A DNA stretch of 64,000 bases from Blastocatellia bacterium (GTDB lineage Bacteria; Acidobacteriota; Blastocatellia; UBA7656): NCBI GenBank assembly GCA_963804815.1, contig CAWDRU010000002.1, forward strand, positions 4,934,780-4,998,779. The letters run 5' to 3'. Position numbers and translations under genes: made by a program. Numbering within the stretch: position 1 is the first letter of the stretch; every line of letters starts with the position of its first letter. Below the pieces are notes generated by a model that saw nothing but the letters and a program-made list of their open reading frames with translations, did not search any database and was not told the DNA's origin. Shown here piece by piece: positions 19,993 through 47,288 of the stretch.

Positions 19993-20351
19993 TATAGACG
20001 AGTATCTCTCGCTCAGAGAGCATCATCTTCTGTTTAGAGATTGTTATTTTTATTGAGAGAACGTCATCTATCGTTGACAGTAAATCATCTCTCGTTAAAT
20101 TATATTTTTTATTTTGCTAATATTTTTTTTGTCATCAGGCAGATTTATTATTATTAATTATATTTGTGCCCGCATTGCGATTAGCGAGCCAACTATATCT
20201 CTCATAGTTTTTGGTGTCAATAAAAACTGTGATTTTTAATACTAACAATTATTTCGCGTGCGCCACTGCGGTGAATCGCTACGGCGAGGACTCAACAGTT
20301 ATTCAGATTATAACGCCTGATATTCTTTGTAAAAATCATCATAAGTAATGT

Positions 20352-20566
20352 AACGTGAATTCGACATAAGAATCAGCCCTGAAAGGGCGAAATTCAATAG
20401 CACAGGGCATCGCCCTGTGTCGTACATCGTGAAATAAACCAAGTGATTTATTTCGCCCTTTCAGGGCTTGTGAGATGGTGGTGTTGCATACCGTGGGTTT
20501 CACCCACGGCTATTGAATTTCGCCCTTTCAGGGCTTTTACTTCGATTATTATGTCGAACTCGCGTT
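20352..20566 (+). mobile_element. MITE-like structured repeat, family A copy 1 (about 215 bp, internal about 24-bp deletion vs other copies)
   Basis: Terminal inverted repeats AACGTGAATTCGACATAAG ... ATTATGTCGAACTCGCGTT. Internal GCCCTGAAAGGGCGAAAT units in inverted pairs. Flanking AATGT direct duplication. Confidence 0.7.
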
Positions 20567-20767
20567 AATGTAGGCATTTAAAAATTCGAGATTCAAAATA
20601 AACACGACCCGAAGCGCCATTGCCTATTTGTTTTATTATGCAGTAAACGGTCTTTAGAATCAGATATTCACTTACACCCCATTACTGATTTCACACTTAT
20701 CCGGCCAGTTGCATCGAGACTAAAACTGTATGGTAACTGTCCCTATCTGGCGATCAAAATATTCCGG

Positions 20768-34136: not shown

Positions 34137-34270
34137 AAATGCCTCCTGTTGTTGTTTGCGGAATGTAGTTGTTTATCTCTTCAAGTGGTAAGACATAGTG
34201 ATGCAAGCGCGGAGTCTAGCAAGCTGCGGTTAAACGATTATGAAGCCAAAATTAAATCTTTGTTACAGGT

Positions 34271-34509
34271 AACGTGAATTCGACATAAGAATCAGCCCTG
34301 AAAGGGCGAAATTCAATAGCACAGGGCATCGCCCTGTGTTGCGCATCAAGAGCAACTACAAGCCCTGTAAGGGCGAAATAAACCAAGTGATTTATTTCGC
34401 CCTTACAGGGCTTGTGAGGTGGTGGCAATCATACCCGGCGCGATGCGCCGGGCTATTGAACTTCGCCCTTTCAGGGCTTTTACTTCGATTATTATGTCGA
34501 ACTCGCGTT
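34271..34509 (+). mobile_element. MITE-like structured repeat, family A copy 2 (full length about 239 bp)
   Basis: Same TIRs as copy 1. Flanked by ACAGGT direct duplication. Its internal hairpin is cccggcgc-gat-gcgccggg instead of ccgtgggt-ttc-acccacgg. Confidence 0.7.
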
Positions 34510-34615
34510 ACAGGTAGAGTTCAAATGTATTTAAGGTTTGATTAACAAACAGATAACCCTGTGACATTAAGCTTGCATCGGACAGGAAACCTTATGTGCA
34601 AAGTGCGAGCAAGCA

Positions 34616-34881: not shown

Positions 34882-35277
34882 ATGACAGACAAGAGATCAG
34901 CATATGATCGATGCGTAGCAGAGCTTGAAATGGCTCAGATGATGTTAAACCAGATAGCCAGCAAACAGGACGCTCCGGCTGAAGATATTCACAAAGCGGC
35001 AGTCGAAGCCAAGAAACTCGAAATCCAACTGGCCGCAACTAAACTTGCGCAGGCCGATTATCACCTCGACGCTCTGAAAGCGCGGCTCGACTTTCTGAGT
35101 GCCCGTGTGGCTGCCGCAGGCGGCCCGTCGAAAAGAGAGCAGGCGGAACTTGAGTGGGCGCGCACGGCAGTGCCCATTAACAGTTCAACCGTCGCGAGGC
35201 TTGCAAACGAGCTTGAAGAACGCAAACAGGAACTGGTAGAGATGATCAGCTTCGCTTCCAAAGACGCGGCGGCCTGA
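34882..35277 (+). CDS. hypothetical coiled-coil protein
   Basis: ORF with a plausible GGAGG-like RBS (caggaggcaggaaATG). Followed by a strong terminator. Confidence 0.4.
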   Translation: MTDKRSAYDRCVAELEMAQMMLNQIASKQDAPAEDIHKAAVEAKKLEIQLAATKLAQADYHLDALKARLDFLSARVAAAGGPSKREQAELEWARTAVPINSSTVARLANELEERKQELVEMISFASKDAAA

Positions 35278-35933: not shown

Positions 35934-36371
35934 TTAATTCTCTTTAAGCGCCCGCCTGCTTTTCTGCTCTACCCACGCGCCTGTTGCCGCGAATTTTTCG
36001 ATCAGCTTGTGATAATCCGAACGGTAAAGCAGCTTGATATTTACTTCCGGGTAATGCTGGCGCAGCAATCGTACTTTGCGATTCTTGGCCGTTACGAGCT
36101 TCTGTTTCAGCGTAGTCAATTCGATATAAATGTCGTGCTGAGGCAGATAGAAATCAGGCGTGAAGCCGTTGACGAAATTGCCTTCATCATCCCATTCGAT
36201 GGCAAAGGTGCGCGGCTCGTAATGCCAGGCTATCTGGTAAAAGTCGAGTATGCGCGCAAACTCTTCTTCGGATGGATGAGCGAACTCCACATGCCGCCGC
36301 TCGGCAAAGTGAACAGAGGTCTTATGCGGGCTGAGATTGCCAATCGGTTCTTCAAAATAAGATGTGGTCAT
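35934..36371 (-). CDS. hypothetical protein (possible PD-(D/E)xK-like nuclease fold?)
   Basis: ORF. GFTPDFYLPQHDIYIELTTLKQK loosely resembles a D...E.K nuclease core. Weak. Confidence 0.35.
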   Translation of the reverse strand: MTTSYFEEPIGNLSPHKTSVHFAERRHVEFAHPSEEEFARILDFYQIAWHYEPRTFAIEWDDEGNFVNGFTPDFYLPQHDIYIELTTLKQKLVTAKNRKVRLLRQHYPEVNIKLLYRSDYHKLIEKFAATGAWVEQKSRRALKEN

Positions 36372-36504
36372 ATAACGCTCCTTGTCCTGCTGGCGCGCAA
36401 CTTACGATCAGGGGGAAAGCGTCACGCGCTTCAAGAGGTTTAACCGAGTGATTAGACAGCATAAAGCCTGAAAGTTAGATGGCTATGTCCTTACTTTTAA
36501 TTTT

Positions 36505-36744
36505 AACGCGAGTTCGACATAATGATCGAAGTAAAAGCCCTGAAAGGGCGAAATTCAATAGCCGTGGGTGAAACCCACGGTATGCAACGCCACTACCACA
36601 CAAGCCCTGTAAGGGCGAAATAAACCAAGTGATTTATTTCGCCCTTACAGGGCTTGTAGTTTATCTTGATGCGCAACACAGGGCGATGCCCTGTGCTATT
36701 GAATTTCGCCCTTTCAGGGCTGATTATTATGTCGAATTCACGTT
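36505..36744 (-). mobile_element. MITE-like structured repeat, family A copy 3 (inverted orientation)
   Basis: Reverse complement matches copies 1 and 2 end to end. Flanked by AATTTT direct duplication. Confidence 0.7.
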
Positions 36745-36827
36745 AATTTTATGTAAAATCCTCATCGTTGCTTATGCTCGCCACTTTACTTTGGCGTGGA
36801 GTACACTCGCTTTCAACGGAGGGACAG

Positions 36828-37571
36828 ATGAACTGGGGTGACCTTTTAAAACTCAGCGGAATCGTAATCGTGATTGTGGGATTTGCGCTCAAGCTGCGCA
36901 CGACTCTCGTGGTCGTAACGGCTGCGCTTGTGACAGGGCTTGTGGCAGGGCTGCCGCTTTTTTCAAGCGACCTTCCCGCTCTGACCAGCCCCGAACAGGA
37001 AGGCATCATCAACATGCTTGGTCGCGCATTTTCAGACAATCGCCTGATGACGCTTTTCATCATCACGCTTCCGGCAATCGGGCTGGCCGAGCGATTCGGA
37101 TTGCAGGAGCAGTCAGCCTCGCTCATCCGCCGCATCAGCGCGGCAACCGTGGGCCGTTTGCAGATCGTCTATCAACTGCTCCGCGTGCTGATGGGCATAA
37201 TCGGCCTCAGGCTCAACGGCCACGCGGCATTCGTGCGCCCGCTGATATTTCCAATGTCCGTAGGCGCAGCCGAAGCGCAGACCTGCGCCCATAGCGCAGA
37301 CGAATTGCCCACGGAATCGGTCGAGCGAATCAAGGCCGCGAACTCCGCGAGCGAAAATTACGGTAACTTCTACGGCCAGAACCTCTCGCCCGTTCAATCG
37401 GGCATACTTCTGGTATACAGCACGTTGAAAGGGCTGGGCTATGAAGTCAGCGTTAAAAGCCTTGTGCTGTTTGCCATCCCCATCGCTTCCATCTCAATCG
37501 TTCTTGCGATCATTCAATTCCTGTTATTTGACCGGATGTTCAGAAAAAAGGCGGCGAAAAATGAACTCTAG
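36828..37571 (+). CDS. polytopic membrane protein (DUF969-like)
   Basis: Start [21 protein letters not shown] after GGAGGG. Multiple TM helices. Confidence 0.45.
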
Positions 37572-38544
37572 CGCAATGGTTTTTCTCTTTGCCATAACGG
37601 ACAGGCTCTCCATGCTCGATTCTGTATACGCGCTGACGGGTATAGTGCTCTTCGTTTTCGCCTGCCGGACGTGGGCCGACCACAGCAACCCGCGAAGAAG
37701 AACGAGCGCCGCGTTCTGGCTGATACTCAGCATAGTCTTCGCGTTCGGAAGCCTCCTGCCGCACTGGCTTACAGGAGTGCTCATTCTGGCGATGGTCGCG
37801 CTTGACGGAGCGGGCCGCGTCGCTCGCGGAAGCTATGACGAAGCAACCACAGCAGAGCAGATAGAGCATGCCCGCCGTCTGGGCGATAAAATATTTCTGC
37901 CCGTGCTGGTGATTCCCGTCGTGACTTTCGGCTTCGCGTTCGCGTTCGGCAAGCTTGGCCTTGACGTGACCAGAGGCGCGCTCGTAGGTCTGGGCTTCGG
38001 CGGTGTAGCGGCCATGGCGGTCGGCTTATGGCTGACGGGCGGCACTCTTCGTCGGATGATGAACGAAGGCCGCCGCCTCAACGACGCTATCGGAACGGTC
38101 AGCATTCTGCCTCAACTGCTCGCCTCGCTCGGTATCATCTTTACAGCGGCTCATGTCGGCGACCTGATTGCGAAAGGCATTTATCAGGTCATACCGGCTG
38201 ACAACCTTTTTCTGCTTGTGCTGGCGAACTGTTTAGGGATGGCGTTGTTCACAATCGTGATGGGGAATTCTTTCGCGGCCTTTCCGGTCATCGCCGCGGG
38301 CGTGCTCGTACCGCTGATAATCAAACCGTTCGGCGTCGATCCCGCGATGGTCGGTATCATCACGCTGACAGCCGGGTCGAGCGGAACACTGATAACGCCG
38401 ATGGCCGCGAACTTCAACATAGTGCCGACTGCGCTTTTGAACATGCGCGATCAATACGGGGTGATAAAATTCCAACTGCCGTTCGCCATAACCATCTGGT
38501 CGCTGCACGTTTTTTTGATGTGGCTGATGATAAAGCTGTTGTAA
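37561..38544 (+). CDS. polytopic membrane protein (DUF979-like)
   Basis: Start [12 protein letters not shown] overlaps the upstream stop by 11 nt, suggesting translational coupling. Multiple TM helices. Confidence 0.45.
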
Positions 38545-38559: not shown

Positions 38560-40920
38560 CTACTGCTCGCCGCGCCGTTCTGCTTCGAGCGCGCGTCGGA
38601 CGCGGAGGAATTCGTCTTCAAGCTCTCTGGCCATCTCGGCGGCCCCAACGACTGAACCCGCACGGCCAATCGTTTCCAACTCGGCGCAGATCGCCGTCAT
38701 CCGCGTAGCGCCGAGGTTGCCGCAACTGCTCTTTAAGGAATGCGATTTGTTGGCAAGCACATGAGCATCGGCCTGCGCTATCGCCTTTTGTATGATCGCC
38801 AGATGAGCTGTTACTTCTTCAAAAAACAGGTCGATCAGCGACGAGAAAAAATCAGGCTCGCCTTTTATCTGAAGCTTGCGCAGGCTTTCAATCACGCGCG
38901 CGTCCAGCGAAACAGTCTCGCTTGCGGCAATCTCTTCGGTCTGCCCGGCTGTTTCTGATCGAAGCGATTGTTTCCCGACCCATCGTTCGAGAACTTCGGC
39001 AAGCTCGCGCTGCCTGAAGGGCTTGCTGATATAGTCGTCCATCCCGGCGGCTAAACAGAGGTCGCGGTCTTCCGGCAAAGCGTACGCGGTCATCGCAATG
39101 ATTACGGTGTGCCTCGAATCAGCTTCGCGCCGCCTTATCTCTTTTGTCGCCTGATACCCATCCATCTCAGGCATCTGGCAGTCCATCAGCACTATGTCGT
39201 AAGCGATTTTCTCCAACGCGTCAATCGCTTCTCGCCCGTTTGAGACGGTGTCGGTTTTATAACCGGCTCGCTGAAGCTGCAACACTCCGACCTCGCGATT
39301 GACGGCATTGTCTTCGACAAGCAATATGCGAATCTGCTGGCGGCGTTCGCGCGAAGATTGCCTTTCGGGCGGCGCGTGATTTTGCCGGGCTTTAACGCTT
39401 TCGACGCCGGTCTGTTTTTCCAGCGGCGCGGTAAACCAGAATGTCGAGCCACGGCCCGGCTCGCTTTCAATTCCTATCTCTCCGCCCATCAATTCAACGA
39501 TCTGTTTAGAGATTGCCAGCCCAAGCCCCGTGCCGCCGTATTTGCGCGTCGTCGAACTGTCGGCTTGAGTGAAAGGCTGAAAAAGGTGTTGCTGCGCTTC
39601 GGGTGAAATTCCGATCCCTGTATCGCTCACGGCAAAACGGACAGTGATGCGCGATTCGCTTTCGCCTTCTCTGCTGACATGGATACGCACCTCGCCCTCT
39701 TCGGTAAATTTCACCGCATTGCTCAACAGGTTCGCGAGCACCTGACCCAATCGAACAGGGTCGCCGCGAAGCCTCCTGTGCACGCCCTCGTCAATGTGCC
39801 ACCCAAGGTCGATATCTTTTGCGCGCGCGCGTTCGACAAGCATATCTGCCACTCTTTCGACCGTCGTGCCGAGGTCGAAGTCAATGGTTTCGAGCACGAG
39901 TTTTCCCGCTTCAATTTTCGAGAAGTCGAGGATGTCATTGATTATTGCCAGCAGCGTATCGGCGCTGAACTGCGCGGTCTCGACGAGCTTGCGCTGGTCG
40001 GCGGTCAACTCGGTGCCCAGCAGCAGATCGACCATGCCGATGACGCCGTTCATTGGCGTGCGAATCTCGTGGCTCATCGTCGCCAGAAAATTCGCCTTGG
40101 CGCGAGCGGCCTCAAGCGCCTCCTCGCGCGCGCGGATCAATTCGCGCTCCAGTCGCTTTCGCTTAGTGATGTCGCGCACAATGGCAAGCGTCTCATCTTC
40201 GCCGCTCACGATGACGCGCAATTCGTAATCGCGGTCTTCAAGCTCGTACTCGAAGATTTGCGCGATGCCGTTTTCCATCTCCGCCTCGCCGCACTGTTCG
40301 ATCTGTCGCGCCATCTCAGGCGGCAAAACATCCGAGACATTTTTTCTTATGAGGTCCGAGGAGTGAGGCAGCAATTCGATGCCGCGCTTCGGGCGGTAAT
40401 CGAGAATCAACCCCTGTCGGCTCATTCTCAACATCAGATCCGGTATCGCGTTGAGCAGCGCCTGATTGCGGGCCTCGCTTTTTCTGAGCGCATCTTCGGT
40501 GCGAGCGAGTCGTTCGTAATCCAGGCTTTTCTCTCTGGCTTTCTGCGCAAGCGTCTGTATCTCTTCGTAGTTGAAGCGGAGTAGCTCGATGACAAGCAAC
40601 CTACGCGTCCCTATCCTCAGCGCGGCGGCTTCGAGGTGGCAGAGCTTCCCGGTCGAATCGGTCTCGCTCCACGGGCCGGACTTCAATCTATCGACACGGC
40701 CCGCAGTCCAGAAAGAATTGGCTTCCCAGAGAAAGTGCTCAAGGAAGATGAAAACGTCCTGTGGTCTGATCGTCTCGCTTGCAGAGATCGGCGCGGGGTA
40801 GAGGCGGGCGAACCAGTCCGGCGCGCTCCCCATCAATTTGAAAGAGCCATCTTCGAGTCTATCCATCGCCACGATATCGAGCGCGGCAAGCATCTCTGAA
40901 TTGATCGTTTCGTCAGCCAT
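38560..40920 (-). CDS. hybrid sensor histidine kinase (unknown N-terminal domain, PAS, HisKA, HATPase, REC, Hpt)
   Basis: H-box [11 protein letters not shown]-box [10 protein letters not shown], receiver LLVEDNAVN...[12 protein letters not shown]-terminal Hpt ([12 protein letters not shown]). Confidence 0.85.
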
Positions 40921-41417
40921 TAACCTTTGATCATCTTTTCGCCGATTGATTGAAAAACCTCTTCCACATTCTCGCCGGTCTTTGCGCTCGTTTCAAACAC
41001 GACCCAGCCCTTCTGTGTGAGCGCCGCGATCTCCGAATCCTGAATCTCCCATTCGCTTTTCAGGTCCGATTTGTTTATCAGGAGGATGAACGGCGCGCTG
41101 CCTATCTCGTTTTCCGCGCGTTGTTGAAGCTCGGCGGCTTTATCAAGCGTCGCTCGCCGCGTGCCGTCAGCGACCAGAAAATAGCCCGCCGAGCCGCGCA
41201 GGTAAGATGTGCGTAACTGTAGAAATTCGTCCTCGCCCGCAAGGTCCCAGAGTATGAGCGTCATCTCCTGACCGCCGACGCTCAGGCTCTTTTTATCAAT
41301 CTTCACGCCCACCGTCGTCAGATACTTATCCGAGAATATGCTTTTGACGAAGCGCGCGACAAGACTAGTCTTGCCCACTGCGAAAGCCCCAACCATGCAA
41401 ATTTTTTTCTGAATCAC
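40920..41417 (-). CDS. Ras-superfamily small GTPase (Ras/Rab-like)
   Basis: All five G-boxes present: GAFAVGKTS (G1), TTVGV (G2), WDLAGED (G3), NKSD (G4), ETSAK (G5). Its stop overlaps the start of the hybrid kinase (TAATG). Confidence 0.8.
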
Positions 41418-41447
41418 TGCCCTAACGCCTCTCTGTTGGCGGCCTCT

Positions 41448-43175
41448 TTACAGGCCCATCACTTTGAATGTTACCTTCCGCTCAATCGTGCGGCGACCTT
41501 GTGCGCCGGTCGAAACGACTTCATCCGGCTTCACGCCTCTTGCGATCAGGGCGGCACGAACGGTATCAGCGCGCTGCTGGCGAAGCCGTTCGTTGCCTTC
41601 TTCGGTTCCGGTTTGATCTGTGTAACCTGAAACCTCTACGCGGACGGCTTTCCCGATCTCGCGCGACAGCGTGCCGAGCGCCTGAATGTCAGACGCGATT
41701 TTATGAAGAGCATCATCCTGATCCGGCGATAGATTCGGGCTTCCCGCATCGAACGTGACGGCGCTTCGTTCAATCTGCTGCCTGAGCGACGCGATTTTAT
41801 TCTCTGCTCCATCTGCGTCAATCAGTCTCTCTTCGCGAAAACCTGTGACGCCGGAGATCATCTGCGCAAGCCTGCGAGCTTCTATAATCCATGTGTGCGG
41901 GGCGATGCCTTCGGCAAAAAGCGCGCCGTCTTCGATTCTGAGCGCGACCGTTTCGGGCGGCTGGAGCAGGCTCTTTGCTCTGGCCAGCGCGAATTCGGGA
42001 TAAGCGGATTGATAAGGCTCCCACCGGCTTATGACATCTTCAGGAGCGATATTCGTCGCTTCAAATTTCGTCGATGGGTCCGTGGCCATCGGGTCGCGCA
42101 GTCCTGTGATGAAATATTTTCCGCCGCGCTTTTCTTCGGAAACGACGACAAGGCCCGGCTCCTGTTTGAGCGCGCTCACATAACTGTTCCAGCGGCTGCG
42201 GTCACGAATCGAAAAGAACAACCAGACGCCAAGCGCCAGCACGACTGCGGCAATCGCAATCCAGATGACTGGTGAAGCCTTCTTATGCCGGGTCTCCAGT
42301 TGCATTCGGAGGCAGTTTTCAAGTTCGTCGCGAGACGCATCAAACGGCGCGGCGTCTCCTTCAAATGAATCGAGCGCGGCCCTTTGCCGCAGATGAATCT
42401 GGTCGAGCGCGTCCTGCAAGGTCGCGCGAAGCTCGCCCGGAGCATTGCCGCGAATGACTGCTGCGATCACCGCCTGTTCGCCCTGCTCTATCCAGACCGT
42501 CAGTTCTCCAACCTGCAGGGATTGAAGTTCGTCGCCTTTTTCAGCGCCCAGTGAATCGCGAACGAAATCCTGAATCGCCGTCAGCATCCCTGACACAAGG
42601 TCGGCATCCTGAGTCGATACGGACGCTCGCGCCACGTGTTGAAGCAACAGGCCCGTGCTCTTGTGTATTAGAAAGACCTGCTCGACGCTGTAGAGCAGGG
42701 TGTGTGTGAGCACGACTTCTGCGAACGGCTTGCCCGTTCTTATCCCTTCGATTCTCCACTTCAGACCCTTGAGCGAAAGGCTGTGTTCAAGGGTCTGGTT
42801 TAGCGATTGAACCATCTGACCGAATATTTGAGAGATGGTCTTTCGGATGGCCGGGCCGATGACGGGAAAGATGGCGTTTGCTAAAGTCTCAGGATTTTTT
42901 CTGACCGAGGCCGTGATGCCTTCTTCGATTGCAGGCATCAGCGCCTTTGTGAATCGCTTGTCGCGGGACGTGCGAAGCAGGATTGCGTCGGGCAGCACGC
43001 GGCTGACAGCTTCGGTCTGGAGTTTCGGATCATCCAGCCGATGTTGCAGTTCGTTTATCCGGGACTGCTCCTCAGAGAAAAGCAGACTGCGAAGCTCGGA
43101 CAGGTCTTCCTGATTCGTATCGCAATCATCACCTTCGGCTTCCGCAGTGCCGCCTTCTCTGATCATTTCAGCCAT
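41448..43175 (-). CDS. bitopic membrane protein: cytoplasmic N-domain (roadblock/LC7-like?), one TM, periplasmic OmpA/MotB peptidoglycan-binding domain
   Basis: TM PVIWIAIAAVVLALGVWLFF. C-terminal RVEVSGYTDQTGTEEGNERLRQQRADTVRAAL OmpA-like motif. Start set at MAEMIREGG. That ATG overlaps the upstream gene's stop by 8 nt. Confidence 0.6.
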   Translation of the reverse strand: MAEMIREGGTAEAEGDDCDTNQEDLSELRSLLFSEEQSRINELQHRLDDPKLQTEAVSRVLPDAILLRTSRDKRFTKALMPAIEEGITASVRKNPETLANAIFPVIGPAIRKTISQIFGQMVQSLNQTLEHSLSLKGLKWRIEGIRTGKPFAEVVLTHTLLYSVEQVFLIHKSTGLLLQHVARASVSTQDADLVSGMLTAIQDFVRDSLGAEKGDELQSLQVGELTVWIEQGEQAVIAAVIRGNAPGELRATLQDALDQIHLRQRAALDSFEGDAAPFDASRDELENCLRMQLETRHKKASPVIWIAIAAVVLALGVWLFFSIRDRSRWNSYVSALKQEPGLVVVSEEKRGGKYFITGLRDPMATDPSTKFEATNIAPEDVISRWEPYQSAYPEFALARAKSLLQPPETVALRIEDGALFAEGIAPHTWIIEARRLAQMISGVTGFREERLIDADGAENKIASLRQQIERSAVTFDAGSPNLSPDQDDALHKIASDIQALGTLSREIGKAVRVEVSGYTDQTGTEEGNERLRQQRADTVRAALIARGVKPDEVVSTGAQGRRTIERKVTFKVMGL

Positions 43176-43751
43176 TGCCCAGGTCCCCCGCGCCTGGAAG
43201 CGTGAATTCGTTGTTGAGCCGCAACGCAAGCTCTGTGAACATATCGGCGAGCGCGGAACGGTCGGTCTTGTCATTGCGAAGTTCTCCGGCTTCGCGGTCG
43301 AGCGCGGCTGAAAGCTCTTCGTATTTTTGACGAATATCGCTGCTGAGATTCTTTGACTGATCCAGTATCTGGTCGCGAAGCTCGCGTTGTGTCTTTGTGA
43401 CCTTCTCGTCGAGTTGAACGGTCTTCTTCTCTACGGTCCGGGTCAAATCCTTGAGTTCGCGCGACAGTTCCTTAACAGATTCCGACCGCTCGCCCTGTTC
43501 GGTTTTCCAGCGGTCAGTTAGAGATTCGATTTCGCCTTTGATATAGGATTCAAGCGAATCGAAGCGCATCTTTATTTCGCCTCTCAGGTCGGACGACTCT
43601 CTGGCGATTCGTTCTTCCAACCGAATGATCCTCTTTTCGTACTCGCGCGACTGAGCGCCAAAGAGTATATCCCTGACTTTATCGAGGCTTCCTGCGCCTG
43701 CAAGGTCTGCCCCGGGCTACCATCGTTACGTGTTTTTTTCTCTTCAGCCAT
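43168..43751 (-). CDS. coiled-coil protein with apparent frameshift in a CCCCGGGG run (sequencing error or pseudogene)
   Basis: N-terminus MAEEKKTRNDGSPG (frame A, ATG at about 43751) and body ...SLDKVRDILFGAQSREYEKRIIRLEERIARESSDLRGEIKMRF... (frame B, ends 43168). One extra G in the run at about 43709-43717 would fuse them into about 194 aa. Confidence 0.35.
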
Positions 43752-44024
43752 ACTTTTAGGTTTGCTCCTTATTTTAGAATTGCTTTTATTGCCTGCCGCT
43801 TTATTCGACCGGTTGTTCGATTTGGTCTTCTTCAATATAGTCGCTTTGATCCGCTTTTTACCAAGCATATATTCATCTCTGAGGACAGGCTTGATCGGCA
43901 TATAATTGGAAGTCCCAACCGCGAGGCAGCCCAAGTATATCACACGCCTGAATATGTCGCGTAAAGAATATCCGGGGAGATCCGGTATCGACGGGCGGGA
44001 TTAAACTGCCTGAGGAATGGCCTT

Positions 44025-44825
44025 TTAATTTGCAGATTTCTTTTCCAGTTCGAGCGCGCAACAGACGCGACGGAATTCTTCTTCGAGCGTCAAAACGAGC
44101 GCGGCTGTGCCGTGCATATGGCCTGCGCGGCTGCGGTCTTCGACGATGTCACACAGCGCATGCATTCGCCGCGCGCCGACCTGACCGCTGCTGCCTTTGA
44201 GCGTATGAGCCGCCACGGCAAGCGCCCGCGAGTCGTCCATCGCGAGAGCCTCTTTCATCCTGTCAATCCTCGTGGGCGAATCTTTTATGAACATATCGAT
44301 CAGTTCCGACAGAAATTCGGGACAGGACGCTTTTGTAAGATTGCGAAGGTTATTTATCACTTCGCGGTCTATCACTTTCGTCAGGGCGTATTCATCGTCC
44401 GTCGCGTCCAGCTTAGCCGACGTTGCCTGCGTCCAATGCGCAAGCACCGCTGCGAGGTCTTCCTGCCGGGCTGGCTTTTTGATGTAATCATCCATGCCGG
44501 ATTGAAAGCAGCGTTCGCGATTCGCTTCAACCGCGTTATCGGTCATTGCGATGATCGTCGTGTGACGCGACTGGCCTTCGCGCCGCCTTATCTCCTGCGT
44601 CGCTTCGTAGCCGTCCATCTCAGGCATCTGGCAGTCCATCAGCACTACGTCATAAGCGGTTTTTGAAAGAGCTTCGAGCGCTTCCAGTCCATTGCTCGCG
44701 GCATCGGCTATGTATCCGAGCATTTGAAGCTGACGAAGCGCTATCCGCTGATTCACCGCATTGTCTTCTACAAGCAGTATGCGAGCCGGTTTTGACAATG
44801 TGTTTGTGGATTCGCTTCCTGCCAT
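44025..44825 (-). CDS. REC-Hpt phosphorelay protein (paralog of the C-terminus of the hybrid kinase)
   Basis: [10 protein letters not shown]...[34 protein letters not shown] is almost motif-for-motif identical to the hybrid kinase receiver. C-terminal Hpt (HTLKGSSGQVGA). Confidence 0.75.
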   Translation of the reverse strand: MAGSESTNTLSKPARILLVEDNAVNQRIALRQLQMLGYIADAASNGLEALEALSKTAYDVVLMDCQMPEMDGYEATQEIRRREGQSRHTTIIAMTDNAVEANRERCFQSGMDDYIKKPARQEDLAAVLAHWTQATSAKLDATDDEYALTKVIDREVINNLRNLTKASCPEFLSELIDMFIKDSPTRIDRMKEALAMDDSRALAVAAHTLKGSSGQVGARRMHALCDIVEDRSRAGHMHGTAALVLTLEEEFRRVCCALELEKKSAN

Positions 44826-44943
44826 AAGTTTCACCCGACGGAAGATTCACTTGACGGGTCGCCTGCGCGTCATCACACCGGCGATGGAGAGAAACGATAA
44901 TACTGTAAACAGCAGCCCGTCCGTAAGAGAGAGTGAGGCTTGC

Positions 44944-45372
44944 TCAAGCAGACATCAGGCACTGTGCGGGCAACATTCGATCAGAAGAATCGGTCACAAA
45001 CGGCGATTTTTTGTCGCTTTTGATGAGAGTAAGGCTGATAACAACAGAAGTGATCAGCCGCTCCATCCCGGCAGACGACAGGATATAGAAGACCGCGCGC
45101 CCGCCAACCTGTAGCCCGGAACTTTCGCTCACCTCTACATCCGCGCCTTCAATTATCGAGCCGATCAGTATAGCGCTGCGCGGCCTATCGTTCAGGACTC
45201 CGCCGGAAAGCATCCCCTGCCGCAGCGACGCATCAGCAAAGACAAATCGATAGATGTTGTTGCCGGTCTTTATCTCTATCATGTCGTTGTTGCTTATGTT
45301 GTCAAGCGATAGTCTGCCGCTATCATTATTCCCGGCATCCCGTCGATCTTTGTATTCACTTGAGAAACTCAT
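44944..45372 (-). CDS. hypothetical protein
   Basis: Start at MSFSSEYKD preceded by GAGGA. No family recognised. Confidence 0.35.
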   Translation of the reverse strand: MSFSSEYKDRRDAGNNDSGRLSLDNISNNDMIEIKTGNNIYRFVFADASLRQGMLSGGVLNDRPRSAILIGSIIEGADVEVSESSGLQVGGRAVFYILSSAGMERLITSVVISLTLIKSDKKSPFVTDSSDRMLPAQCLMSA

Positions 45373-46604: not shown

Positions 46605-47288
46605 TCAGCGAGGCGGGTCGGCGAGTTTATGCTTGTATGCATAGATCAGAAGCTCTACGCGGTCGCCAACATCGAGTTTGTCGAAGATGGAAGTCAGGTG
46701 ATGGCGCACGGTCGTTTCGCTGATGAAGAGTCGGTCGGCTATCTCTTTGTTCCTGATGCCCTCGCCGATCAGCGTAACGACCTCTCTCTCTCGATTCGTC
46801 AGCGTGGCTATCTTTTCCGCTTCGGGATCAGGGGTTTTGGGTTTGGGCGCGCGCGACATTTCGCCCAGCATGCTTGCCGTCGTCGCAGGGTCGAGCCACG
46901 CTTCCCCTCTGCGAACCACCTTGATGGCGTTTATCAGCACGTCAGCGGCTTTGTCCTTGGCCACTATGCCCATAGCGCCAAGCATGAGGGCTTTTTTGTA
47001 AACTTCCGTGCTGCGCATACCCGTCAGTATGATTATTCGCGCAGCATTTGCGGCGGCAAGCAGATCGGCGATGATCTCTGTGCCGTTGAAATCGCCCATA
47101 TCGAGGTCGAGCAGAATGATGTCCGGGTTTTCACTCGCGGCCAGCGCCAACGCCTCAGCACGATTGCCCGCTTCGCCAACCATTTTCATATCGGGCTGGC
47201 TGTCGATTATCATGCGCAAGCCTGTGCGAACCACCAGATGATCATCCACCAGAAGCACTCGAATATGTTTTGCGCCGGAGTTGTCCAT
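46605..47288 (-). CDS. NarL/LuxR-family response regulator
   Basis: Receiver VLLVDDH...LLDLDMGD. C-terminal LuxR HTH LTNREREVVTLIGEGIRNKEIADRLFISETTVRHHLTSIFDKL. Confidence 0.85.
   Translation of the reverse strand: MDNSGAKHIRVLLVDDHLVVRTGLRMIIDSQPDMKMVGEAGNRAEALALAASENPDIILLDLDMGDFNGTEIIADLLAAANAARIIILTGMRSTEVYKKALMLGAMGIVAKDKAADVLINAIKVVRRGEAWLDPATTASMLGEMSRAPKPKTPDPEAEKIATLTNREREVVTLIGEGIRNKEIADRLFISETTVRHHLTSIFDKLDVGDRVELLIYAYKHKLADPPR

What the first reader, a model, noticed from the sequence alone, without database searches (positions are those of the whole stretch)
38560..44834. Operon coupling a Ras-superfamily small GTPase to an OmpA/MotB-domain membrane protein and a hybrid histidine kinase: candidate undescribed envelope signalling module
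Minus-strand gene order is REC-Hpt protein (44025-44825), 270-bp gap, coiled-coil protein (43168-43751, frameshifted), membrane protein (41448-43175), small GTPase (40920-41417), hybrid kinase (38560-40920).
The GTPase has all five canonical G-boxes including the eukaryote-like ETSAK G5, and its stop overlaps the kinase start.
The membrane protein has one TM helix, a periplasmic OmpA/MotB peptidoglycan-binding domain and a roughly 300-aa cytoplasmic N-domain. That N-domain has alternating beta-strand-like segments (VLTHTLLYSVEQVFLIHKSTGLLLQHVA ... LQVGELTVWIEQGEQAVIAAVIRG). This makes me suspect a roadblock/LC7/longin-type fold, which is the known partner class (MglB-like GAPs) of prokaryotic Ras-like GTPases. 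This fold assignment is inference, not seen as a motif.
The hybrid kinase has about 120 N-terminal residues of unknown function ahead of PAS-HisKA-HATPase-REC-Hpt. Its REC-Hpt tail has a near-identical free-standing paralog just upstream, which suggests a branched phosphorelay.
Bacterial small GTPases wired to a peptidoglycan-anchored partner and a phosphorelay are, to my knowledge, not a characterised system.
Basis: partly seen in the sequence, partly recalled or inferred. Interest (0 to 1): 0.75.

Follow-up and report, generated by a model that had tools for sequence, protein, structure and literature searches.

The report
Bacterial Rab-like GTPase envelope signalling cassette
This is a real, strongly conserved four-gene bacterial signalling cassette built around a Rab-like small GTPase; it was catalogued by computer in 2014 as the 'Group 1 Rup' system but has not been tested in the lab as far as I could find, and structure prediction here suggests its membrane partner has the same 'longin' fold that regulates Rab GTPases in eukaryotes.

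Summary
The operon is real. On the minus strand it reads REC-Hpt, coiled-coil protein, membrane protein (cytoplasmic domain, one TM helix, OmpA-like domain), small GTPase, soluble hybrid histidine kinase.

It is not undescribed. It matches the 'Group 1 Rup' (Rup1) neighbourhood of Wuichet & Søgaard-Andersen 2014 (DUFY > DUFX:OmpA > Rup > signalling output with an invariant N-terminal Gln). I found no experimental work on it.

In 80 genomes from many phyla:
- The coiled-coil gene precedes the membrane gene in 75/75 loci.
- The GTPase follows in 71/77.
- An output protein with the same N-terminal domain is present in 62/68.

Corrections:
- The REC-Hpt paralog is 49% identical, not near-identical.
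- The coiled-coil 'frameshift' is one missing C, absent from two otherwise identical public assemblies.

Verdict: a new member of a known, uncharacterised kind, with two fold assignments I did not find reported.

The parts
41448..43175 (-). DUFX:OmpA membrane protein (575 aa): cytoplasmic N-domain, one TM helix, periplasmic region ending in an OmpA-like peptidoglycan-binding domain
   Evidence: ORF. OmpA PF00691 at 49 bits against a cutoff of 27.2. Single TM. Family of 4885 50%-identity clusters. 575+ genomes.
42735..43121 (-). Helical N-terminal region of DUFX (res ~19-147). It includes the near-invariant FPVxGPAIRK...MxQSLNQ segment, which is modelled with low confidence.
   Evidence: Alignments A1/A4. 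AF2 helices 19-147, with pLDDT below 50 for residues 100-133.
42306..42728 (-). Longin-like domain of DUFX (res ~150-290): helix, two strands, helix, three strands, then helices
42201..42275 (-). Transmembrane helix (res ~301-325)
   Evidence: Kyte-Doolittle 19-residue maximum 2.75. It is the only segment at or above 1.6.
41496..41756 (-). OmpA-like peptidoglycan-binding domain (res 474-560) with the TDxxG...N..L...RA motif
   Evidence: Pfam and NCBIfam. The motif is read directly from the sequence.
40920..41417 (-). Group 1 Rup (Rup1) Rab-like small GTPase, 165 aa, GTG start. Phe12 sits at the Ras-Gly12 position and Glu62 at the Ras-Gln61 position.
   Evidence: Ras PF00071 1e-34. Best solved relatives are Rab23, Rab2A and Sec4, E ~1e-25. 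Family-wide Phe 61/74 and Glu 59/74.
38560..40920 (-). Soluble hybrid histidine kinase (786 aa): PAS-like N-domain, PAS, HisKA (His284), HATPase, REC (Asp580), Hpt (His727)
40483..40920 (-). Cassette-specific PAS-like N-domain of the kinase (res 1-146). Gln126 (codon 40543-40545) is at least 90% conserved in the 121-sequence family alignment and Arg129 is conserved only in this subfamily; both lie on the C-terminal helix.
43168..43751 (-). DUFY coiled-coil protein. It reads as frameshifted in the window because one C is missing after 43711. The public copies encode an intact 194 aa.
   Evidence: Present upstream of DUFX in 75/75 loci.
44025..44825 (-). Free-standing REC-Hpt protein (266 aa from the ATG). 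A lineage-specific accessory, 49% identical to the kinase tail.
44944..45372 (-). Small conserved hypothetical protein. It lies upstream of the cassette only in the closest Blastocatellia relatives. A link to the cassette is uncertain.
   Evidence: phmmer hits in L001-L003 only. No Pfam, NCBIfam or PADLOC family.

Best explanation
The locus is a Group 1 Rup (Rup1) GTPase signalling cassette in a Blastocatellia-type acidobacterium.

Shown:
- Four co-oriented genes are present, with the last two translationally coupled: a coiled-coil protein (DUFY); a single-pass membrane protein with a cytoplasmic longin-fold domain and a periplasmic OmpA-like peptidoglycan-binding domain (DUFX:OmpA); a Rab-like GTPase with intact nucleotide-binding motifs but Phe at Ras-Gly12 and Glu at Ras-Gln61; and a cytoplasmic output protein.
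- The first three genes and a PAS-like N-domain on the fourth are conserved. The rest of the fourth protein varies. Here it is a hybrid kinase; elsewhere it is a simple kinase, an HD-GYP protein, a sigma-54 activator, a class III cyclase, or nothing.

Inferred mechanism:
- The wall-anchored DUFX protein, probably dimerised or scaffolded by DUFY, uses its longin domain as the platform that loads or holds the GTPase. By analogy with longin/roadblock platforms, this role is most likely nucleotide exchange.
- GTP-bound Rup binds the PAS-like domain of the output protein. Here that would alter autophosphorylation of His284 and the His-Asp-His relay to a response regulator.
- The invariant Gln126 on the PAS-like domain's C-terminal helix, with Arg129 in this subfamily, completes the GTPase active site in trans. 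The output protein would then be both effector and off-switch.
- The free REC-Hpt protein is a local add-on that could divert or buffer phosphoryl groups.
For: Identity:
- The gene order and every component match the published description of Group 1 Rup neighbourhoods and Table S2, 'DUFY>DUFX:OmpA>Rup>'.
- The GTPase lacks the G3 Gln, as described for Group 1.
- The output N-domain carries the near-invariant Gln: at least 90% in the 121-sequence alignment and in all 10 sequences of the mixed-subfamily alignment.

Functional linkage:
- DUFY is upstream in 75/75 loci. Rup is downstream in 71/77, plus 4 divergently transcribed. The PAS-like-domain protein is present in 62/68 loci. These loci span Acidobacteriota, Cyanobacteria, Thermodesulfobacteriota, Verrucomicrobiota, Armatimonadota and Nitrospirales, while the flanking genes are not conserved.
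- There is a one-base stop/start overlap between the GTPase and the kinase.

Longin platform.

Output role of the fourth gene: one conserved N-domain is fused to HisKA/HATPase, HisKA_3, HD_5, Sigma54_activat+HTH_8, Guanylate_cyc, PAS only, or stands alone.

In-trans catalysis:
- The GTPase has Phe12 and Glu62.
- Gln126 is kept even in stand-alone 126-199-aa proteins that have no downstream domain to signal to.
Against: - No interaction, nucleotide-exchange or hydrolysis data exist, and no complex model could be run here.
- The longin assignment rests on one AlphaFold model (mean pLDDT 66; mostly 64-90 in the longin part, dipping to 51 around a low-confidence loop). It has no sequence-level support.
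- Longin domains can also be GAPs (folliculin, NPRL2) or plain adaptors, so the GEF role is analogy only.
- PAS domains are not a known class of small-GTPase effector or GAP.
- Gln126 and Arg129 lie on a helix that in kinases usually forms a dimeric signalling helix, so their conservation could be structural. Arg129 is lost in the divergent subfamily.
- The direction of information flow (envelope to kinase) is not shown.
Confidence: 0.6

Rival explanations
1. Reversed wiring ('inside-out'). The cytoplasmic PAS-containing output protein is really the input. It senses a cytoplasmic cue and sets the nucleotide state of Rup. Rup then acts on the wall-anchored DUFX/DUFY complex, which would be the true output (envelope organisation or localisation). 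This is similar to the proposal that the GTPase is the output of the actinobacterial conservon.
For: - In many genomes the fourth protein is just the PAS-like domain with no enzymatic output (126-199 aa). In Pyrinomonadaceae it is the PAS-like domain plus one further PAS.
- Wuichet & Søgaard-Andersen argue that the GTPase is the output in the conservon.
- The kinase here has a second cytoplasmic PAS that could sense something.
Against: - The variable part of the cassette consists of classic output enzymes (kinase, HD-GYP, cyclase, sigma-54 activator), while the membrane/GTPase part is constant. That is the usual signature of a conserved input with swappable outputs.
- DUFX has no recognisable enzymatic or effector domain in the periplasm beyond peptidoglycan binding.
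Confidence: 0.2
2. Same cassette, but with the roles of the two partner domains swapped or reduced. The longin domain is the GAP (arginine-finger type, as in folliculin or NPRL2, or MglB-type repositioning) or merely a membrane anchor. The PAS-like domain is only an effector, and its conserved Gln is structural.
For: - Longin and roadblock domains act as GAPs in MglB, FLCN and NPRL2, and all of these appear among the structural hits.
- The DUFX longin region has invariant or near-invariant arginines: R141 and R146 just before it, and R242 at the end of strand 5.
- Arg129 of the PAS-like domain is not universal.
Against: - The GTPase lacks its own Gln. MglB-type GAPs work by repositioning intrinsic catalytic residues, which are absent here.
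- The Gln on the PAS-like domain is the one residue conserved across both subfamilies and in stand-alone versions.
Confidence: 0.25
3. A MotB/ZorB-like stator or an anti-phage defence module. In this reading the OmpA-like protein is a stator subunit and the coiled-coil protein resembles a ZorA tail.
For: Only weak PADLOC and NCBIfam hits: the OmpA-like region to ZorB (E 2e-4) and the coiled coil to ZorA/LeoA (E 1e-7 to 5e-4).
Against: - The hits cover only the generic peptidoglycan-binding domain and low-complexity coiled coil.
- No MotA/ExbB/ZorA membrane protein is encoded in the cassette.
- The TM helix follows a 300-residue cytoplasmic domain instead of sitting at the N-terminus. The GTPase has no PADLOC hit.
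Confidence: 0.03
4. The cassette is decaying in this genome: the coiled-coil gene is a pseudogene.
For: The window's copy has a frameshift. From the ATG at 43751 the reading frame ends at a TGA stop inside the gene.
Against: - Two public assemblies, 99.98% identical over 10.9 kb and 5.5 kb, have the extra C and an intact 194-aa gene.
- All other cassette genes are intact.
Confidence: 0.08

Closest known systems
Group 1 Rup (Rup1) GTPase neighbourhood, Wuichet & Søgaard-Andersen 2014 (PMC4316618)
   Same: - Same four components in the same order: coiled-coil DUFY, DUFX with TM and OmpA, and a ~165-aa Rup GTPase lacking the G3 Gln.
- The output protein has an N-terminal region carrying an invariant Gln.
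- A histidine kinase is one of the outputs they list.
   Different: - Acidobacteriota were not in their Group 1 list.
- They called DUFX and the output N-region 'unknown'. Here these are assigned longin-like and PAS-like folds.
- More output types are seen here: HD-GYP, sigma-54 activator, class III cyclase and stand-alone.
- This copy has an extra REC-Hpt gene.
MglA/MglB polarity module (Myxococcus, Thermus)
   Same: A small Ras-superfamily GTPase paired with a partner of the roadblock/longin structural superfamily. It has links to two-component-type proteins.
   Different: - MglA has a modified G3 motif and intrinsic Arg/Gln (PMC3000849 abstract and my own knowledge). Rup has a canonical DxxG but no Gln.
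- MglB is a small soluble roadblock dimer. Here the domain scores best as longin and is part of a wall-anchored membrane protein.
- Wuichet & Søgaard-Andersen predicted no MglB partner for Rup.
Actinobacterial conservon (CvnA-D / Mfp)
   Same: An operon that couples a small GTPase, a roadblock-superfamily protein and a histidine kinase.
   Different: - The conservon GTPase is MglA-family.
- Its kinase is membrane-bound and carries a C-terminal LPxR motif.
- The roadblock protein is free-standing, and a DUF742 protein is present.
- There is no peptidoglycan-binding component and no coiled-coil protein.
Eukaryotic Rab regulators built on longin domains (Mon1-Ccz1, TRAPP, DENN; folliculin and NPRL2 as GAPs for Rag)
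   Same: A Rab-like GTPase next to a longin-fold domain. Mon1, Ccz1, TRAPP subunits, DENND1A, FLCN and NPRL2/3 are all structural hits.
   Different: - There is no detectable sequence relationship.
- It is a bacterial single-pass membrane protein with a periplasmic wall anchor.
- Function is untested, and common descent versus convergence is open.
GAPs that supply catalytic residues in trans (TBC RabGAP Arg+Gln dual finger; Rap1GAP Asn thumb)
   Same: The GTPase lacks its own catalytic Gln, and the partner has a conserved Gln (plus Arg in this subfamily). This is the idea proposed in PMC4316618.
   Different: The partner is a PAS-like fold unrelated to TBC or RapGAP. The comparison comes from general knowledge, not from a test run here.
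Unorthodox/hybrid kinases of the BarA/ArcB/TorS type
   Same: HisKA-HATPase-REC-Hpt architecture. The best NCBIfam matches are BarA and TorS, well below their cutoffs.
   Different: There is no transmembrane or periplasmic sensor. The input is a cassette-specific PAS-like domain.

Membership tests
Group 1 Rup (Rup1) system | Single-domain Ras-superfamily GTPase with eukaryote-like G1-G5 motifs | tested here: met
   Ras PF00071 1e-34. G1-G5 located. Best solved relatives are Rabs.
Group 1 Rup (Rup1) system | No catalytic Gln after the G3 DxxG | tested here: met
   WDLAGED. Glu62 in the window, and Glu in 59/74 or Ala in 8/74 relatives.
Group 1 Rup (Rup1) system | Neighbourhood DUFY (coiled coil) > DUFX (unknown domain, TM, OmpA) > Rup | tested here: met
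   Compare Table S2 of PMC4316618.
Group 1 Rup (Rup1) system | Fourth gene is a signalling output whose N-terminal region has an invariant Gln | tested here: met
   Gln126 is present in at least 90% of 121 sequences and in all 10 of the mixed-subfamily alignment.
Group 1 Rup (Rup1) system | Phylogenetic placement inside the Group 1 clade | not tested
   No tree was built. Proxy: cassette GTPases from Nostoc, Anabaena, Fischerella and Calothrix loci match at E 1e-64 to 1e-70; Nostoc and Anabaena are genera listed in Group 1.
MglA/MglB module | MglA-type G3 and intrinsic catalytic Arg/Gln, with a separate MglB roadblock gene adjacent | tested here: not met
   Canonical Asp58 with Glu62. No free roadblock gene is present in the cassette.
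Longin domain | Two strands, helix, three strands, then two C-terminal helices, with close structural similarity to solved longin domains | tested here: met
Longin domain | Sequence-profile membership (Pfam longin-type or roadblock models, or a PDB sequence match) | tested here: not met
   No Pfam hit at E up to 1. A profile search against PDB sequences finds no longin or roadblock.
PAS domain (kinase residues 1-146) | PAS fold: two strands, helices, three strands, then a C-terminal linker helix | tested here: met
OmpA-like peptidoglycan-binding domain | PF00691 above the gathering score, with the conserved Asp and Arg of the TDxxG...RA motif | tested here: met
   49 bits against 27.2. YTDQTG at 518 and RLRQQRA at 530. 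Binding itself is not testable here.
MotB/ZorB stator subunit | N-terminal TM helix with a proton-binding Asp and an adjacent MotA/ZorA gene | tested here: not met
   The TM is at residues 301-325, after a 300-aa cytoplasmic domain. No MotA-like gene is present. Only weak ZorB hits, confined to the OmpA-like region.
Hybrid (unorthodox) histidine kinase | HisKA with His, HATPase_c, REC with Asp, Hpt with His | tested here: met
   His284, Asp580 and His727 located.

The most novel reading that the evidence does not exclude
The unknown domain of DUFX is a genuine longin domain that acts as the exchange factor or platform for a Rab-like GTPase. If so, a Rab-plus-longin regulatory pair is widespread in Bacteria (thousands of sequence clusters, many phyla), where it is wired to a peptidoglycan-anchored transmembrane receptor and plugs into interchangeable outputs through a PAS-like domain that supplies the missing catalytic Gln. 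This would be a bacterial counterpart, and possibly a relative, of eukaryotic Rab/longin-GEF modules. It would also be a new principle of transmembrane signalling: a wall-anchored receptor passing a signal through a small GTPase to a two-component or second-messenger output.
Probability: 0.3. Interest if true: 0.75.

Novelty: new member of a known kind. Interest (0 to 1): 0.5.

Why it matters
Rup1 GTPases are the bacterial group that clusters with eukaryotic Rab/Ras/Rho/Ran and Asgard RasL proteins. I found no experimental work on any of them.

This analysis gives them concrete, testable partners:
- A longin-fold domain on a wall-anchored membrane protein.
- A PAS-like domain carrying the invariant Gln on the output protein.

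If these hold, three things follow:
- The prediction that Rup proteins do not work with MglB-type partners would need revising.
- The Rab/longin pairing would extend to Bacteria.
- It would define a widespread way of coupling the cell envelope to kinases, cyclic-nucleotide enzymes and sigma-54 activators.

For this window specifically, the locus is one more member of that catalogued cassette.

Tried and rejected
- Word-indexed homologue search with the kinase N-terminus alone found only 5 proteins. A profile built from neighbouring genes was needed.
- Sequence-level tests for longin/roadblock membership gave nothing: Pfam at E up to 1 and a family profile against PDB sequences. The only hit was a spurious phage tail protein at E 0.037.
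- A shared origin of the N-termini of DUFY and DUFX (both have an L..(V/L)R..L(F/L)G motif) is not supported: hhalign probability 4%.
- BON domains in the periplasmic region are weak: 1 of 16 homologues, E 6e-4. I do not claim them.
- Defence-system reading: only generic weak PADLOC hits.
- Promoter and terminator scans gave nothing convincing in the 273-bp gap between REC-Hpt and the coiled-coil gene.
- Flanking genes (LuxR-type regulator, DUF969/DUF979, transglycosylase-associated protein) are not conserved next to the cassette elsewhere, so I left them out.
- Ten literature searches, including locus tags from model strains, found no experimental study. The held library lacks many subscription-journal papers, so absence is not proof.
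- Not possible with these tools: complex prediction (GTPase with longin or PAS-like domain), and coevolution analysis (80 loci are too few).

Full report
**1. What is in the sequence**

Five co-oriented ORFs lie on the minus strand:

| Coordinates | Product |
|---|---|
| 44025-44834 (ATG at 44825) | REC + Hpt |
| 43168-43751 | coiled-coil protein |
| 41448-43175 | 575-aa membrane protein |
| 40920-41417 | 165-aa GTPase |
| 38560-40920 | 786-aa hybrid kinase |

- Pfam confirms Ras (1e-34) for the GTPase and OmpA (8e-13, residues 474-560) for the membrane protein. It also confirms HisKA, HATPase_c, Response_reg and Hpt in the kinase, and Response_reg plus Hpt in the upstream protein.
- The GTPase TAA stop and the kinase ATG share one base (TAATG).
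- The coiled-coil stop overlaps the start of the membrane gene.
- Only the 575-aa protein has a hydrophobic segment, residues ~298-325. The kinase is therefore soluble.
- The phospho-sites are present: His284, Asp580 and His727 in the kinase, and the equivalent Asp and His in the free REC-Hpt protein.

**2.

- The free REC-Hpt protein is 49% identical to the kinase tail, not near-identical.
- The coiled-coil frameshift is real in the window. A MAG contig (GCA_049590935.1, JBAWDW010000309.1) and a Logan assembly (SRR28022924) carry the same locus at 99.98% identity.
  - The only differences in 10.9 kb are one extra C after window position 43711 and one mismatch near 36690.
  - In both public assemblies the gene is an intact 194 aa.
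  - The frameshift is most likely a sequence error or a rare variant. The two assemblies may derive from the same sample, so they are not certainly independent.
- The GTPase has all five G boxes. However, it has Phe12 where Ras has Gly12 and Glu62 where Ras has the catalytic Gln61. This holds across the family: Phe in 61/74 and Glu in 59/74.

**3. It is a conserved cassette**

- The membrane protein's cytoplasmic domain defines a large family: 4885 clusters at 50% identity with E ≤ 1e-3.
- A scan of one genome per species found at least 575 genomes encoding a relative. I kept 80 loci, from Acidobacteriota, Cyanobacteria, Thermodesulfobacteriota, Verrucomicrobiota, Armatimonadota, Nitrospirales and others.
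- In these loci:
  - The coiled-coil gene sits immediately upstream in 75/75 cases where sequence is available.
  - The GTPase sits immediately downstream in 71/77, and is divergently transcribed upstream in 4 more.
  - A protein with the kinase's N-terminal domain is present in 62/68.
- Flanking genes are not conserved.
- The REC-Hpt gene occurs full-length only in the closest relative (L001), with a REC-only version in L003. The small ORF at 44944-45372 occurs only in the three closest relatives, L001-L003.

**4. It has already been described**

Wuichet & Søgaard-Andersen (Genome Biol Evol 2014, PMC4316618) defined the Rup family and its Group 1. They reported that Group 1 rup genes lie with three conserved genes:
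- a coiled-coil cytoplasmic protein;
- a protein with an unknown domain, often followed by a TM helix and an OmpA domain;
- a signalling output (GGDEF/EAL or histidine kinase) whose N-terminal region has an invariant Gln. They proposed this Gln replaces the missing G3 Gln in trans.

Their Table S2 lists 'DUFY>DUFX:OmpA>Rup>' in Nostoc, Anabaena, Nitrospira, Sorangium, Mesorhizobium, Alteromonas and others, but no Acidobacteria. The window meets every listed feature; only a phylogenetic placement was not done. Later work calls the group Rup1 and places it with Rab/Ras/Rho/Ran and Asgard RasL. Ten full-text searches, including locus tags of model strains, found no experimental study.

**5. What the two unknown domains are**

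Neither has a Pfam model.

*Membrane-protein residues 1-305.*
- AlphaFold2 with a 121-sequence alignment gave a mean pLDDT of 66. The N-terminal part is helical. It includes a near-invariant but low-confidence segment, FPVxGPAIRK...MxQSLNQ.
- A better-modelled C-terminal subdomain covers residues ~150-290, with block pLDDT mostly 64-90 and a dip to 51 around the low-confidence loop at 211-216. Its order is helix, two strands, helix, three strands, helices.
- Foldseek agrees independently: top hits are Mon1-Ccz1 at E 4e-5 and Sec22b at TM 0.78.
- A family profile finds no longin or roadblock sequence in the PDB, so the assignment is structural only.

*Kinase residues 1-147.*
- The model has pLDDT 84.6 with PAS topology plus a long C-terminal helix.
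- Gln126 and Arg129 lie on that helix.
- Gln126 is kept in both subfamilies of the domain, and in stand-alone proteins of 126-199 aa. Arg129 is kept only in the window's subfamily.

**6. The output is swappable**

The PAS-like domain is fused to several different modules:
- HisKA/HATPase with or without REC and Hpt;
- GAF-HisKA_3-HATPase, followed by a LuxR-type regulator;
- HD_5 (HD-GYP type);
- Sigma54_activat plus HTH_8;
- a class III cyclase domain;
- a single PAS;
- nothing at all.

A constant membrane/GTPase part with a variable enzymatic part argues that the fourth gene is the output.

**7. Most likely mechanism**

The steps below are inferred, not shown.
- The wall-anchored DUFX protein, scaffolded by DUFY, uses its longin domain as the platform that controls the nucleotide state of Rup. 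By analogy this is most likely exchange.
- Rup-GTP engages the PAS-like domain and changes kinase activity and the His-Asp-His relay.
- The conserved Gln, with Arg here, on the PAS-like helix completes the crippled active site, so the output protein also switches Rup off.
- The N-in/C-out topology is inferred from the cytoplasmic partners and the peptidoglycan-binding domain.
- What is sensed in the periplasm is unknown.

**8. Rivals**

- Reversed wiring, with the envelope complex as the output.
- Swapped roles, with the longin domain as GAP or anchor and the PAS-like Gln as structural.
- A stator or defence module. This has only generic weak hits and no MotA-like partner.
- A decaying cassette, which the intact public copies contradict.

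Chance co-location is excluded by the conservation counts.

**9. Verdict**

- The anatomy is confirmed, with two factual corrections.
- The claim that the system is undescribed is not supported.
- The locus is a new, acidobacterial member of a catalogued but uncharacterised kind.
- I did not find four things reported: the longin-like assignment for DUFX, the PAS-like assignment for the output N-domain, the wider range of outputs, and the size of the family. They make the published in-trans-Gln hypothesis and a GEF/GAP assignment directly testable.

Noticed in passing
window 20350-20568, 34269-34510, 36503-36745: Three ~240-nt palindromic elements. Each holds two inverted copies of the Acido-Lenti-1 RNA motif (RF01687, 41.7-43.5 bits against a gathering score of 37). 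The last two are inverted relative to each other. They bracket a ~2-kb segment with two small ORFs: 34882-35277 (+), with no family, and 35934-36371 (-), with a weak Phage_endo_I match at 1e-4. This might be a small mobile or cassette-like unit.
   Followed up: partly
window 43711 (coiled-coil gene 43168-43751): A single missing C relative to two public assemblies of the same locus (99.98% identical) creates the apparent frameshift. The only other difference in 10.9 kb is one mismatch near 36690.
   Followed up: yes
window 46605-47288 (-): A NarL/LuxR-type response regulator (REC + GerE) lies 1.8 kb upstream of the REC-Hpt gene. It is a possible terminal acceptor of the relay. Similar regulators lie near the cassette in only 3 of 80 other loci. 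One of these (L056) directly follows a HisKA_3 kinase that carries the PAS-like N-domain.
   Followed up: partly
window 44944-45372 (-): A small hypothetical protein with no family match. It is conserved upstream of the cassette only in the three closest Blastocatellia relatives.
   Followed up: partly
window 43630-43689 and 43040-43100 (N-termini of DUFY and DUFX): Both proteins begin their conserved part with a similar motif: LDKVRDILFG..., followed by RLEERI, versus LSELRSLLF..., followed by LQHRLDD. A profile comparison does not support homology (hhalign probability 4%). It may be a shared interaction motif.
   Followed up: partly
L060, L063, L068, L076, L080 (related loci): In some Desulfobacterales-type and acidobacterial loci, a more divergent small GTPase (~166-207 aa, E 1e-27 to 1e-49) is transcribed divergently upstream of the coiled-coil gene. 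In L080 it is additional to the downstream GTPase; in L060, L063, L068 and L076 no downstream GTPase was found.
   Followed up: no
window 36768-38544 (+): A DUF969/DUF979 membrane-protein gene pair converges on the 3' end of the kinase gene. It is not conserved next to the cassette elsewhere.
   Followed up: yes
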